DNA of 64,000 nucleotides from Eledone cirrhosa. Its lineage: Eukaryota. The notes below the pieces were generated by a model. That model did not search any database, had not been told where the DNA came from, and saw only the letters and a list, made by a program, of their open reading frames with translations. A program made the position numbers and the translations under genes. Location: NCBI GenBank assembly GCA_964016885.1, contig OZ024752.1, positions 9,858,001 through 9,922,000 on the forward strand. Reading direction: 5' to 3'. This document shows positions 6,105-62,880 of this stretch, piece after piece (the stretch's first letter is position 1; the number at the start of each line of letters is the position of its first letter).

Positions 6105-6720
6105 AAACACACACACATATAGCACATATATACATGCATATATATATATATATATATATATATATATATATATACACACACACATATATATATATATATA
6201 TAAACATACACACATATATGCATATATATATATATATGCACACACACACACACCCACACATATATGCACATATATATATATACATACATATATATATACA
6301 CATATATATAGACATACACACACATATATATATACACATATATAGAGACACATGCATGCATATATATATATATATATATATAGGAACCAGTAAGACCCCG
6401 ACAGCTGAGCTCAAGCCGTTTCGACGGCTAGCCGTCGAAACGGCTTGAGCTCAGCTGTCGGGGTCTTACTGGTTCCTATTACCCACTCTACTACCTCAAG
6501 TATTGAGTACTTTGGTGCGTTATGGTCCACCTGGTTCCTTACCACATTTCCTTCGTTATATATATATATATATATATATATATATACACATACACATATA
6601 TATAGACATACACACACACATATGCACATATATACATACATGTATACATATATATATATATATTTATATATATATATATACACATATGGTTATATGTATA
6701 TATATATATATATATATGTT
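6105..6720. repeat. (TA)n/(CA)n microsatellite block hosting a fold-back element
   Basis: Direct dinucleotide runs. Confidence 0.95.
6381..6557. mobile_element. TA-embedded fold-back element, family A (half hammerhead core)
   Basis: Perfect palindrome of about 100 bp centred on cgacggctagccgtcg, plus a unique tail. Contains GAAA-cggct(tgagctc)agctg-TC. Copies at 7952, 9553, 13400, 45733 and 59603. Confidence 0.75.
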
Positions 6721-6804
6721 ATGTATTTCCGTAGGAAAGGTAAAGGAAAGAAGAATGCTCTATGAATAGTACAGATCTTTATATAATAAACAACACAATA
6801 TAAT

Positions 6805-6878
6805 TATTCCATTACTCAAGGTTTCATGAAACTATGCGATTCTAAACGAAGGATCCAGTTCGTTCATCAGATGAAATA
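6805..6878 (-). ncRNA. Type I hammerhead ribozyme
   Basis: Minus strand reads tatttcat CTGATGA [stem II] GAAA ccttgag TA| atggaata. Stem I is 8 bp including one G-U pair. Confidence 0.7.
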
Positions 6879-6898
6879 TCCATGTTATCCATGACAGA

Positions 6899-6972
6899 TA
6901 TTTCATCTGGTGAACGAACTGGACATTTCTGTTAGAATCGTCTAATCTCGTGAAAACTTGAGTAATGGAATA
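6899..6972 (+). ncRNA. Type I hammerhead ribozyme, degenerate core (CTGGTGA)
   Basis: tatttcat CTGGTGA acga...tcgt GAAA acttgag TA| atggaata. Confidence 0.55.
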
Positions 6973-7042
6973 ATTATATTGTGTTATTTATTATAATATA
7001 ATATATATATATATATATATATATATATATATATATATATAT

Positions 7043-7542
7043 AACGGCGATGATTTAGCTTTGCGAGGTTTTTGATATGAAATCGTGTGTCGAAACAAAT
7101 ATTGTTATACTTGGGGAGGGTCATATTTGTGTAATATTGCCAGAATTAATAACAGAACACACTCACTGTTTGGTTGGTTTTCGCTTTTCGCTTCTGTGTC
7201 TTTTATATCGGTAATCTAATTTATTCGATCCTCAATGTTGCTATTGACTGACCAACGGTCAAAAATAATACAGATACAATATAGACACAAACACATATAT
7301 ATATATAGTTTATCAAAGTTCTTTCGTTGCACATCTGCAACATCGTCAGTGGTGCTATTGTTTCCTCCCGTTGCATTGCATTTTCTACGCCATCTTTTCT
7401 CAACATTGAGGACCGAATAAATTAGATTACCGATATAAAAGACACAGAAGCGAAAAGTGAAAACCAACCAAACAGTGAGTGTGTTCTGTTATTAATTCTG
7501 GCAATATTACACAAATATGACCCTCCCCAAGTATAACAATAT
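7043..7542. mobile_element. Family C element (minus strand, 7400 to 7043) plus an inverted copy of its 3' part, between (TA)n tracts
   Basis: Near-identical arms of about 145 bp at 7097-7240 and 7400-7542. Homologues at 15985-16230, 32845-32958 and 61880-62030. Confidence 0.8.
7311..7355 (-). ncRNA. Minimal hammerhead ribozyme (family C)
   Basis: Minus strand reads gcacca CTGACGA t gttgca-gatg-tgcaac GAAA gaac TT| tgata. Stem II is perfect; stem I is eroded. Confidence 0.6.
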
Positions 7543-7667
7543 ATATATATATATATATATATATATAGTAATAATAATAAATGTGAAGACTAAATTCAAA
7601 AGAGGGCTTGATAAGGATAAATATATATCAAATATATAAGAACCGTAGAGCAAATATTTATTAAAAT

Positions 7668-7778
7668 AACAGATTAAAATTTAAGCAAAAGAACGCTGTT
7701 TTCACCCTTAGCGGGATATTCTGAAAGATCCCGTTAAGGGTGAAGCAGCGTTTCTTCGCTTAAACTTTAATCCGTTGT
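7668..7778. repeat. Imperfect inverted repeat
   Basis: Arms of about 50 bp around acccttagcgggat-attctgaaag-atcccgttaagggt. Confidence 0.7.
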
Positions 7779-7951
7779 TGGGGGGACCGTCCTGAGTAAG
7801 TCAGTCAAGACTGAAAGGAACAGAAAGTCGTCAGCCTTGCTTCTGCTGGACACCACCAGAGGGCGATAGCCCCGTTGTTTGCATAGCTACGGCTTCCTAA
7901 AACCGTGTTTCTTTAGAAATAAGAAATTTATATATATATATATATATATAT

Positions 7952-8110
7952 GAAAAAGTATGACGCCCTGCATCCAGAAATAGCCATCGAAAACGGCTTG
8001 AGCTCTGCCGTTGGGGTCATACTTTTTCTTATTTCAAACTCTACTACCCTAACTATTGAGTACTCTGGTGCGTTATAGTCCATCTGGTTCCTTACCACAA
8101 TGACTTTGTT
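7952..8110 (+). mobile_element. Family A copy (diverged) between (TA)n tracts
   Basis: atcgaaaacggcttgagctctgccgttggggtc...ggttccttaccac. Confidence 0.7.
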
Positions 8111-8151
8111 ATATATATATATATATATATATATATATATATATATATATA

Positions 8152-59793: not shown

Positions 59794-60474
59794 TATATAT
59801 ATATATATATATATATATATATATATATATATATATATATAAATGAAAGGTATAGAAATTGTTTTAGCGAGAATATATATATATATATATATATATATAC
59901 CCACATAAATATATATATATATGTACACATACACATACATATACATGTGTGTGTGTGTGTGTGTGTGAACGGCTGGATAGATTTATTATTTCAAGTGACA
60001 ACAAACCCCTGAGTGTCTTCTAATATAATTGATAATATACTTTCTTTGTTCACCTCATCACTAAACGTGATGCTCTATTTATTTTCCTCGCAATTAAAAA
60101 TTATTTTAAAGCTGATCTTCACATGGATAAATTTAAAACAAATCTGGATACCAAAATGGAGGACAGTCAAATGATTTCGAAATTCTTCTACGTAATACAG
60201 CCTACCTTATTTTACACAGTATTGCTGCAATCCTAAAATTCCATATATGCTTATTTTCTTTAAATGCATCTAACAATAGAGCGGTTTCAGACAGATTTCA
60301 TTGATTTATAGGAGCAACACACCTCTGCTATACATTTCAGGTCATAAAGATATGAATTTCACACAACAGAATGTTTCCACAAAATGGCTGCCAGATTATA
60401 TCTAAATTAGGATTATTGATAGCCTTAAAATCTGTAAACTAGGATATTCATCATTGTCATCCCTATTATTAATA

Positions 60475-61022
60475 TCATCATCATCATCATCATCAAAGGA
60501 ACGACCACATTTAACAACACCACCACCACTACCACCACCACCACCACCACCACCACCATCATCATCATAAACAACGCCACAATTCACAACGCCTTCCCCA
60601 CCACCACCATCATCAACACCGCCACCATCATCAACACCTTCTCTATTACCACCACCACCGCCATCATCAACAACGCCACAATTAGCAACACCTTCCCCAC
60701 TACCACCACCTCCACCAACATAAACACCTTCTCTACTACCACCACCACCATCAACGCCGCCACAATTAACAAAACCTTCTCTACTACCACCACCACCACC
60801 ATCATCAATACCGCCACAGTTAGCAACACCTTCACCACTACCATCATCAACACCGCCACCATCATCAACACCTTCTCTACTACCACCACCACCACCACCA
60901 TCATCAACACCGCCACAATTAGCAACACCTTCTCCACCACCAACACCGCCACCATCATCAACACCTTCTCTACTACCACCACCACCACCATCATCAACAC
61001 CGCCAGAATTACTATTACCAAC
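60475..61022. repeat. CAC/CAT-rich degenerate trinucleotide minisatellite
   Basis: Direct observation. Confidence 0.9.
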
Positions 61023-61023
61023 A

Positions 61024-61447
61024 AGGGCGGTGGATTGGCAGCCTCGGTTGGGTGTCAGGCACCATACTTTGCAGCATGGAGTTATGGCCCTTTCTGTTCT
61101 GAGTTCAAAACCCCCCGAGGAAAGCTTTGCCTTTCATCGTTATGGGGTCGATAAAATAAAGCACCAGTAATGTACTGGGGTCGATTTAATCGACTTTTCC
61201 CTCCCCTCCCCCCTAAATTACTGGCATTGTGCCTATACTATAACTCATTATTACGACCGGTGGATTGCCAGTATCGGTAGAGGGACGGACGCCATGCTTT
61301 GCAGCAAAGAGTTACGGCCCTTTATGGTCTGAGTTCAAATCCCGCCTAGGTTAACTTTGCCTTTCATCCTTACGAGGTCGATAAAATAAAGTACCAGTAA
61401 TGTACTGGAATAATTGCTGGCCTTGTGCCAAAAGTAGAAATAATTAT
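61024..61447 (+). mobile_element. Two tandem Nin SINEs
   Basis: Copies at 61024-61252 and 61257-61447. Confidence 0.85.
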
Positions 61448-61538
61448 TACCAACCACCCAATTTTAGTGAAAATTATCGCCATCCGAATTGCTGATGTGT
61501 TTCTTAAATTTGAACATTTTTCAGTAAATGTTCTAGAG

Positions 61539-61746
61539 CATGGATGACTGACATACGGCCCGTGGGCAGCATGCGGCCCTTTACAAGCTCACCTGCGGCC
61601 CGCACAAAGGTTTTTTACAGCGCGAGCATGTTTTATCTTCGTAAAATCTTTTTGTAATATGCGCAATTATTTGACGTGTGTGGCCCTCAGACAACACATA
61701 TGTGACCCATGTGGTTCTAGGGGAACCGTGAGTTTAGGCATGCCTG
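61539..61746. mobile_element. hAT (Charlie-like) MITE
   Basis: 8-bp TSD ttctagag/ttctagac, ends ca..tg, and repeated cggccc subterminal motifs. Confidence 0.75.
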
Positions 61747-61879
61747 TTCTAGACAGTAAGTGAAGTAATTCTTCATCATTGATTCCTTATATAAACACAC
61801 GATGTCAATTCCTATGTCTAAGAAGATACAGATATTCACAAAGTTCCAGTAATTATTTATTCATTTTGCGCCAATGTAT

Positions 61880-62030
61880 TTGTTTTGCAAGGTTTTTGAT
61901 ATGAAATCTGTGTTCAAACAAATATTGTTATAATATTGTCAGAAAATCCACCGAAACAGTGAGTGTGTTTTACTATATTTTTCTTGTAGCATTAGAACAA
62001 CATGACCTTCCTCCAAAATAACAATATATT
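61880..62030. mobile_element. Family C remnant, again in an inverted arrangement
   Basis: Left part matches 7060-7108; right part matches 7470-7542. Confidence 0.6.
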
Positions 62031-62477
62031 ATCATTTATTTTACGTTAAACATTTCGCTGTATTTCCTGATTTCATAAACAGAAGGGAAATTCGCATGAT
62101 TGAGAAATGTGAATAAGAACGCCCCTCTCTTTATCTGAACATATAACTTTAAATTATTATTGTTATATCCAGCATTTACTTGTCTAACTGTCAGCATTGG
62201 ATGTTTCCGTTTGAGAAGTTTCAAGATTAACATTTTGCAGAGTTCTACCCAACTCACCAGAGCAGTATGTTAAATTAGAACAGTTTGGAATCTATTAAGT
62301 CACGTTTTGCTAATGTTTTATTTGTTTCACTGCATGCATACCGGGTCAGGATCTCATGATGGAGAGGTAGCAACAGCGTATATATATGATAGAAAAAAAA
62401 TAAATTGACCGCCATATGAACACGATACGTTACAGATATTTCTATGCTTTATATGTTCAATCCGTTAATACAACAGC

Positions 62478-62700
62478 AGAGGTCCGACGACCTTTTAATT
62501 CCAGATTCTGGCCAGATCGATATAGATCGAACCTTGAGCTGGTAAATAGCGAAACGTGCGTCACCAATCAATAAACGTAATGAAGGCTTAACAAATCATC
62601 CTTGTATTATTATATTACACTGTTTAGCTCTACACCTCGCTACTGACTTGAACCGAAGCATCGAGTGCTCACCTGGTAATTTCATGTTACACTCCTTGTA
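62478..62700 (+). mobile_element. Family D element with a hammerhead-like fold (62481-62565)
   Basis: ggt CCGACGA ... GAAA cgtgcg TC| acc, then AATAAA; homologous to 8152-8395. Confidence 0.55.
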
Positions 62701-62844
62701 CACACGTACACACCTACACACATACACACACACACACACACACGCACACATATATATGTAAAAGGTAAACAGAAATAACAACACAATCGGTATAGTATAT
62801 GGAAGGGATATATTAGGTTAACGCTTGATATAACAGAAAGAGGG

Positions 62845-62880
62845 TCTTAACGTTTCGGATGCTAGTCCTTCATCAGATGA
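62845..62880 (-). ncRNA. Minimal Penelope-type hammerhead (family E, element about 62755-62940)
   Basis: Minus strand reads tcat CTGATGA a gga-ctagca-tcc GAAA cg TT| aaga. Confidence 0.65.

What the first reader, a model, noticed from the sequence alone, without database searches (positions are those of the whole stretch)
6381..62880. Window-wide system: unrelated hammerhead-bearing elements inserted in (TA)n as head-to-head fold-backs
Seen: at least eight sequence-unrelated families carry a CUGANGA..GAAA..UH core, or part of one, with pairing stems. Examples are at 6805/6899, 7311/32870, 8307/62481, 28478/28892, 45077/45276, 54130/54909, 55526 and 62845, with half cores at 6381/59603 and 59299. 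In every same-family inverted pair the ribozyme sense is minus in the left arm and plus in the right arm, so both 3' ends point outward into TA-rich DNA. Known: Penelope-like element pLTRs and animal non-LTR retrozymes carry minimal type I HHRs, and PLEs can have inverted pLTRs. Inference: both ends of a break in (TA)n DNA prime reverse transcription on ribozyme-processed RNA and the cDNAs join centrally. These RNAs would then act as microsatellite-targeted mobile elements or break patches. Their density and diversity here look under-described.
Basis: partly seen in the sequence, partly recalled or inferred. Interest (0 to 1): 0.85.

Follow-up and report, generated by a model that had tools for sequence, protein, structure and literature searches.

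The report
Penelope fold-backs pair long and short ends
These are Penelope-like retrotransposon ends and small hammerhead-bearing "retrozymes" inserted head-to-head in (TA)n DNA, a known layout; what is new is that almost every fold-back has one long and one short end, which likely means one enzyme complex primes both sides of the cut target at two fixed RNA sites.

Summary
In 1.39 Mb sampled at evenly spaced positions, 111 hammerhead-like folds were found against 0.95 in shuffles. Same-family inverted pairs were head-to-head in 15 of 15, with (TA)n just 3' of them. They are not a new system. Families B and C are 3' ends of Hydra-clade Penelope-like elements (an intact 738-aa RT/GIY-YIG family exists), F/I ends another ORF-bearing PLE, and A and E are tandem-unit retrozymes. 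Head-to-head layout, a tail at one end, (TA)n targets, opposite-strand hammerhead pairs and the U3-A8 core are all in print. The new result is that fold-backs nearly always pair one 'short' with one 'long' (tailed) end: 43 of 47 in a tail-blind test and 8 of 8 in this window. In several pairs neither arm can be a copy of the other. The best model, inferred, is coupled twin priming by a dimeric PLE complex. This makes an openly stated PLE question testable.

The parts
6383..6429 (-). Family C (Hydra-type PLE 3' end), short-ended arm; holds the 3' half of a U3-A8 hammerhead
6430..6556 (+). Family C, long-ended arm with 80-nt tail containing the ACTC..GAGT stem, ending in (TA)n
6719..6888 (-). 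Family D, long-ended arm; type I hammerhead core at 6870; tail 6719-6785 shared with L061/L087/L117
6889..6991 (+). Family D, short-ended arm with mutated core at 6907
7043..7400 (-). Family F/I, long-ended arm: pLTR of an ORF-bearing PLE (L104, L171, L178); weak minimal hammerhead at 7349; 59-nt tail
7401..7538 (+). Family F/I, short-ended arm (no hammerhead in it)
7973..8099 (+). Solo family C copy between TA runs
8152..8480 (-). Family G: TA-abutting repeat with a GAAA-palindrome-UC half but non-canonical first core box; ribozyme not confirmed
18431..18590 (+). Family H copy with the hammerhead interior deleted
28129..28692 (-). Retrozyme A (480-nt tandem unit), long-ended arm of more than one unit, ends at unit 480; hammerhead core 28515
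28696..29188 (+). Retrozyme A, short-ended arm, ends at unit 424; hammerhead core 28899
32846..32915 (+). Diverged relative (79%) of the F hammerhead
45034..45209 (-). Family B (subfamily of the Hydra-clade PLE of L265-L269), short-ended arm; hammerhead core 45133
45210..45458 (+). Family B, long-ended arm; hammerhead core 45284; tail with ACTC..GAGT stem
45481..45643 (+).
53769..54463 (-). Retrozyme E, long-ended, terminally redundant arm; hammerhead core 54211; a SINE piece (53860-53961) sits in the tail
54743..55133 (+). Retrozyme E, short-ended arm; mutated core at 54918
55515..55626 (+). Solo hammerhead-bearing copy (core 55529), stem I damaged in this copy
59124..59385 (.). Family M fold-back (short left, long right); CUGAUGA at 59299 without a second core box, not a confirmed ribozyme
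59604..59735 (-). Family C, long-ended arm
59736..59793 (+). Family C, short-ended arm
62503..62698 (+). Second family G copy (75% to 8154-8369)
62751..62932 (-). Family H with minimal hammerhead (core 62876)

Best explanation
These are 3' ends of Penelope-like elements and tandem-unit retrozymes sitting head-to-head in (TA)n with one short and one tailed end, likely made when a dimeric PLE reverse transcriptase/GIY-YIG complex nicks both strands of the target and primes cDNA from each end at two fixed sites that flank a predicted protein-binding stem in the RNA. SHOWN here: the identity of the families, head-to-head polarity, (TA)n just 3', two fixed 3' ends per family, long+short pairing, ends away from the ribozyme cut, and active partner ORFs for B, with broken ORFs for C and F/I. 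IN PRINT for another PLE in vitro: nicking and extension of both strands, two internal RT start sites bounding the tail, predicted dimer, cleavage not required (PMC11167929). INFERRED: the two priming events are coupled in one complex. The long-site RT either stops near the short-site cDNA (giving an inverted tail only) or passes it by strand displacement or on the next tandem unit. The two antisense cDNA ends then anneal by short microhomology and copy each other, so no separate second-strand primer is needed. Retrozymes borrow the same enzymes through the same kind of end. The hammerhead would cut or circularise multimeric RNA upstream of this step and does not set the ends.
For: Long+short pairing: 43 of 47 resolved pairs in four families found by body sequence only (p about 1e-9 against 0.5); 26 of 26 in family C; 16 of 19 inverted retrozyme-A insertions, with 2 unresolved and 1 at another site pair; 15 of 15 partners of long-ended B copies end at the short site; 8 of 8 in the window; 3 of 4 double-ORF fold-backs, the fourth with a tail cut at 29 nt; L075. 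Short arm left 46, long arm left 44. Arms not copies of each other: 6 of 26 C pairs have the short arm reaching further 5' while only the long arm has the tail (L179 by 1,087 nt); L178 likewise. In A, 7 of 18 long arms end within 25 nt of the short site (p 0.002 against uniform; short arms 2 of 18). Junction overlap of 2 nt or more in 7 of 16 vs 18% expected (p 0.017). RCTC..GAGY stem just past the short site in 11 of 32 tail families vs 0.42 in shuffles, with A-U/G-C exchange; also seen in D and E homologues. ORF neighbours head-to-head 14, tail-to-tail 0.
Against: All evidence is genomic; no intermediate, cleavage or transcript was observed. Four of 47 pairs were not long+short (2 short+short, 2 long+long; the latter probably scoring errors from a TA-rich tail reference), and 2 more were dropped as unresolved. 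Many copies are unpaired (B 18, C 23, F/I 15, Neptune 9). In 18 of 26 C pairs both arms stop at the same place, which snap-back would also give. Short sites are AT-rich like the target, so endonuclease cutting of element DNA could also make them. PMC11167929 saw no difference in start-site use between strands and did not test coupling. Microhomology is modest, 3 of 16 junctions have inserts, and the long-vs-short contrast in 5' ends is not significant (Fisher p 0.12). The tail motif and the 25-nt window were chosen after seeing the data. No partner protein was found for retrozyme A. L025 ends at 215/272, outside both sites.
Confidence: 0.6

Rival explanations
1. Both arms are primed at the long site (or by two separate complexes), and the short end is made afterwards when the element's endonuclease cuts the AT-rich short site in one arm to resolve the intermediate ('EN-mediated resolution', PMC8557442).
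For: Short sites read like target DNA (TAT/ATAT follows them in most window arms). It also predicts long+short pairs. PMC11167929 recounts that the D. virilis endonuclease needed the tail for recognition.
Against: PMC11167929 mapped RT starts at both tail boundaries in vitro. Long arms that stop near the short site (7 of 18) fit two primers on one RNA. Long+long pairs are almost absent.
Confidence: 0.2
2. Self-priming or snap-back: one cDNA (or an antisense template, as proposed in PMC3846280) folds back at a short palindrome and copies itself, and the copy joins the other target end at the AT-rich short site.
For: Many centres are perfect or near-perfect palindromes with both arms ending at the same place (18 of 26 C pairs; window 6383-6476).
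Against: In 6 of 26 C pairs and in L178 each arm holds sequence the other lacks. In retrozyme A most pairs have widely different 5' ends. A DNA copy has no reason to stop at a fixed family-specific site.
Confidence: 0.12
3. One reading: both ends of a break in (TA)n prime on hammerhead-processed RNA, acting as break patches.
For: Outward polarity and TA adjacency are real. A pre-existing break as primer cannot be excluded for a given copy.
Against: Neither 3' nor 5' ends sit at the cut. Arms run through intact ribozymes. Fold-backs also occur in families with no confirmed ribozyme (G, M) and in intact endonuclease-coding elements.
Confidence: 0.04
4. Host-driven fold-back inversions at fragile (TA)n, or assembly artefacts, unrelated to element enzymes.
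For: A (TA)n-centred palindrome exists at 55098-55201.
Against: Here TA is outside and the centre is in the element. Ends are family-specific. Arms differ by 1-20% and in length. The abundant SINE shows no such fixed pairing in the window.
Confidence: 0.03

Closest known systems
EN+ Penelope-like elements with inverted pLTRs and 'tail' (PMC3846280, passages; PMC8557442, passages and section 11)
   Same: Head-to-head inverted 5'-truncated copy, tail at one end, partial tandems, AT-rich or (TA)n targets, hammerhead in the pLTR.
   Different: There the tail is 'optional' or 'often at one end' and 30-40 bp. Here it is 40-130 nt in most families and paired almost as a rule with a short end, across clades and retrozymes.
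Hydra clade of PLEs (PMC8557442 section 11)
   Same: DKT, RW[K/R], CxCX5C linker, no CCHH, CxxC and CxH near the EN end, canonical hammerhead, (TA)n insertion.
   Different: Described from a small number of families, generally under 3 kb. Here the unit is 4.0 kb, 45,609 first-look candidates answer one RT query, many intact near-identical ORFs exist, and one family has a U3-A8 hammerhead.
Poseidon from Anolis (PAc) in vitro (PMC11167929, first two of four parts read)
   Same: Two RT start sites bounding the tail, both strands nicked and extended, AT-rich target, cleavage dispensable.
   Different: Coupling of the two sites in one event was not reported. The sites there are closer together and lie in the ORF start.
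Animal non-LTR retrozymes (PMC7229834 parts 2-3; bioRxiv 10.64898/2026.07.22.740005 parts 1-2 of 5)
   Same: Tandem non-coding units with one type I hammerhead each, U.U at the base of stem II as in axolotl HHR_Amex2, co-existing with PLEs.
   Different: A word search of PMC7229834 gave no 'inverted' or 'microsatellite'. Here they form fold-backs with PLE-type long and short ends in (TA)n. The A unit (480 nt) is slightly above the 150-450 range given there.
L1 twin priming
   Same: Two target ends prime on RNA, giving a head-to-head inversion joined by microhomology.
   Different: In L1 the second primer lands at variable places and the arms do not overlap. Here both sites are fixed and the arms often cover the same region.

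Membership tests
EN+ Penelope-like element | Single ORF with RT and C-terminal GIY-YIG endonuclease | tested here: met
   Pfam RVT_1 + GIY-YIG on L061, L064, L071. For the partners of B, C and F/I Pfam gave nothing useful (5 pieces); RT and EN motifs were read directly.
EN+ Penelope-like element | pLTR / partial tandem with hammerhead | tested here: met
   L269 tandem of 4.0-kb units with one hammerhead each; L265, L266, L268 pLTR-ORF-pLTR.
EN+ Penelope-like element | Head-to-head inverted copy and tail at one end | tested here: met
EN+ Penelope-like element | RT phylogeny with PLEs and telomerases | not tested
   No reference PLE proteins were on hand; no tree was built.
Hydra clade (partner of B; C by homology) | DKT and RWK motifs | tested here: met
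   DKT at residue 119 and RWR (one change) at 38 of the 738-aa frame. The C partner is 5'-truncated, so not testable there.
Hydra clade (partner of B; C by homology) | CxCX5C linker, no CCHH in the EN, CxxC and CxH near the end | tested here: met
   Read in L269 and L097 against PMC8557442 section 11.
Hydra clade (partner of B; C by homology) | Generally shorter than 3 kb | tested here: not met
   Tandem period about 4,011 nt. The paper gives this as a tendency, not a definition.
Non-LTR retrozyme (families A, E) | Tandem non-coding unit with one type I hammerhead per unit | tested here: met
   A: 480-nt unit, arrays of five or more units. E: terminal redundancy and unit read-through in homologues, no PLE ORF attached.
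Non-LTR retrozyme (families A, E) | Expressed as linear and circular RNA | tested here: inconclusive
   No RNA holder listed; the one raw RNA run gave no test.
Type I hammerhead ribozyme | Core boxes with stems I-III | tested here: met
   A, B, D, E, H, 55529 family, and C with U3-A8.
Type I hammerhead ribozyme | Core boxes in families G and M | tested here: not met
   G lacks a canonical first box; M lacks GAAA/stem III downstream.
Type I hammerhead ribozyme | Self-cleavage | not testable with these tools
   Needs in vitro transcription.

The most novel reading that the evidence does not exclude
PLEs and animal retrozymes integrate by obligatory, asymmetric twin priming: one RT-endonuclease dimer clamps a conserved stem between two start sites and extends both target strands, one from each site, so the head-to-head fold-back with a single tail is the normal product and replaces second-strand priming. 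The stem would be the code that assigns each retrozyme to its helper clade, and this genome would hold about 200,000 hammerheads spread this way.
Probability: 0.4. Interest if true: 0.75.

Novelty: new member of a known kind. Interest (0 to 1): 0.52.

Why it matters
How PLEs make their inverted structures and finish the second strand is named as open in PMC8557442 and PMC3846280, where self-priming on an antisense template was proposed. The long+short rule and the mutually non-contained arms argue against pure self-priming and tie the two in vitro start sites of PMC11167929 into one event. An apparently active, intact Hydra-clade protein with a defined RNA end and a simple (TA)n target gives a direct assay. 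PLE-type ends on retrozymes are genomic evidence for who moves them. A density near 60-80 hammerhead folds per Mb would be among the highest reported, though descriptors differ between studies.

Tried and rejected
The Rfam scan of the window was swamped by TA-repeat miRNA matches; no hammerhead among the 150 rows shown of 342. Rfam on the C 3' region gave only chance hits. The repeat finder was swamped by TA arrays. The pile-up of C 5' ends at reference 2545-2560 first looked like a ribozyme cut; hairpin, twister, HDV, pistol and hatchet layouts (recalled) did not fit by eye, and the site lies inside stem II of the U3-A8 hammerhead, so it is read as an RT stop. (strict pairs 90 long+short, 4 long+long, 1 short+short) is partly circular, and its families 3 and 4 were mis-defined (short tail; microsatellite contamination), so one search is the main test. 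In one search only 142 of 424 local inverted repeats were TA-plus-tail; 203 had no TA at either end and were not studied. Eleven of 43 tail clusters were dropped as non-tails before the motif count. A scan for the retrozyme-A tail motif in the fetched loci found only A and a sister retrozyme, no partner ORF. tblastn with eight PLE proteins hit 18 of 140 sequences and not the window. Expression: no RNA holder listed; run X7 gave no test; X1 holds the sequence at very high summed depth but is of unknown type, so it is no evidence. Earlier-findings look-ups were empty. No structure or complex prediction was run. Literature searches that found no statement of coupled long/short priming; the library lacks most subscription papers and Repbase, and no supplements were read (the pLTR and hammerhead files of PMC8557442 could bear on the Hydra claims).

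
Full report
Setting. The window is G000:C12:9858001-9922000 in a 3.0-Gb genome of 1,796 contigs, AT-rich and full of (TA)n. A recalled SINE sequence suggests an octopus-like animal; this was not tested.

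2. What the families are. The genome has 10,596 first-look GIY-YIG candidates and long RT+GIY-YIG frames. Family C is the end of a PLE whose ORF is in L097, and F/I is the pLTR of another in L104, L171 and L178. Family B is about 78% identical to the end of a young element with many intact 738-aa frames at 98-100% identity and 45,609 first-look candidates for its RT. That protein meets the Hydra-clade motifs of PMC8557442 section 11. The B and C proteins are 42% identical though their ends share no DNA similarity. Family A is a 480-nt non-coding tandem unit with one hammerhead, 1,109 candidates and near-identical copies: a non-LTR retrozyme. E (1,521 candidates) is likewise terminally redundant with no ORF attached. 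D, G, H, M and 55529 were not traced to a full element.

3. The ends. In A the ribozyme cut follows unit position 158, but 3' ends fall at 480 or near 424, and no 5' end is at the cut. The 30 loci are 24 insertions; 19 are inverted, all head-to-head; 16 have one arm at 479-480 and the other at 414-428, two have an unresolved end, and L025 ends at 215/272. In the sample, 21 families with two or more loci show one arm abutting TA and the other carrying a family-specific tail. Finding pairs by body sequence alone in four families gave 43 long+short, 2 short+short, 2 long+long and 2 unresolved. C gave 26 of 26. All 15 inverted partners of long-ended B copies end at the short site; one runs into a SINE, and L246 also has a tail fragment in the opposite arrangement. 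All 8 window fold-backs are long+short. ORF-bearing neighbours were head-to-head 14 times and never tail-to-tail, one pair probably listed twice; of four fetched, three are long+short and one has a cut tail.

4. Mechanism. Snap-back needs one arm to be contained in the other. In 6 of 26 C pairs and in L178 it is not, though 18 of 26 C pairs are compatible with it. In A, 7 of 18 long arms stop within 25 nt of the short site, five of them holding little more than the tail, as expected if two primers share one RNA; short arms do so in 2 of 18, and the contrast is not significant. Junctions show a modest excess of microhomology (7 of 16 with 2 nt or more vs 18%; three complex or TA junctions left out). 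An RCTC..GAGY stem starts within 25 nt of the short site in 11 of 32 tail families against 0.42 in shuffles, with A-U and G-C forms (defined after inspection); B, C, D and E carry it, A does not. PMC11167929 (parts 1-2 of 4 read) shows in vitro that a PLE protein nicks and extends both strands, starts at two internal sites bounding the tail, is predicted to be a dimer and does not need ribozyme cleavage. Putting these together, the likeliest reading (0.6) is coupled twin priming by one dimer. Endonuclease resolution at the short site (0.2) and snap-back (0.12) remain; priming on ribozyme-cut ends is rejected.

5. Against what is known. PMC3846280 (passages) states that head-to-head is the most frequent arrangement, that the tail is optionally on one inverted pLTR, and proposes self-priming. 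PMC8557442 (passages and section 11) gives the inverted copy, the tail, (TA)n targets and calls the mechanism open. PMC4209133 (passages and section 5) notes opposite-strand hammerhead pairs 100-700 bp apart. PMC7229834 (parts 2-3 and a word search) defines retrozymes and counts over 6,000 motifs in coral, about 5,000 in mussel and 126,247 in axolotl. The 2026 preprint (parts 1-2 of 5) derives retrozymes from PLEs. A 2026 octopus repeat annotation has no 'hammerhead', 'ribozyme' or 'Hydra' in its main text (word search). Searches found no statement of coupled long/short priming, within an incomplete library.

6. Verdict. The feature is real and belongs to known kinds: PLE ends (Hydra clade for B and C) and retrozymes. 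It is not a new system of ribozyme-primed break patches. Its value lies in the near-obligatory long+short pairing, the shared tail stem and an active protein, which make a stated open question about PLE integration directly testable. Interest 0.52.

Noticed in passing
window 20119-23836: GC-rich tandem array of about 78-bp units; its unit resembles pieces at 2165-2382, 19960-20165 and 33049-33231.
   Followed up: no
window 30173-30817: Tandem array of 65-bp units at about 96% identity, with related pieces at 30857 and 51636.
   Followed up: no
window 4194-4650, 13005-13190, 19700-19920, 24392-24599, 53000-53182, 54472-54662, 61024-61456: An abundant SINE-like repeat of about 190 bp; a piece is carried inside the tail of several retrozyme E copies.
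   Followed up: partly
window 2081-2464, 2646-3134, 9505-9918, 32842-33327, 25351-25767: Fragments that look like ends of non-LTR retrotransposon ORFs (restriction-like endonuclease type and RTE type; labels recalled).
   Followed up: no
window 7665-7779 and 35611-35824: Further fold-backs next to TA with family-shared tails (tail clusters 3 and 7) and no hammerhead in the window copy; the 7800-7930 segment has homologues with hammerheads (L110, L205).
   Followed up: partly
window 55098-55201: Perfect inverted duplication of an E end centred on (TA)n, the opposite layout to the main fold-backs.
   Followed up: no
L097 reference positions 2545-2560 (family C): Most C copies are cut off 5' inside the long stem II of the U3-A8 hammerhead, leaving 60-140-nt stubs; probably a strong RT stop.
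   Followed up: partly
L025:1095-2184: Retrozyme A fold-back ending at unit 215 and 272: other sites, but the same 56-57 nt offset as 424/480. One case only.
   Followed up: no
L266, right end beyond 9422: The tail stops after 29 nt and is followed by an inverted copy of the left flanking DNA.
   Followed up: no
L004 reverse strand 2494-3144; L106, L124, L133: A sister retrozyme with its own hammerhead and an A-like terminal hairpin, often inserted beside other retrozymes.
   Followed up: partly
L133:281-3381 and L174:279-9567: Long retrozyme arrays (310-nt and about 422-nt periods) acting like satellites.
   Followed up: no
L171:4925-7348, L178: The F/I partner ORF has an asparagine-rich N-terminal part and a long insert between RT motifs; clade not assigned.
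   Followed up: no
window 63629-63697: Weak tRNA match (30.7 bits) within a repeat shared with 14544-14722, probably a SINE head.
   Followed up: no
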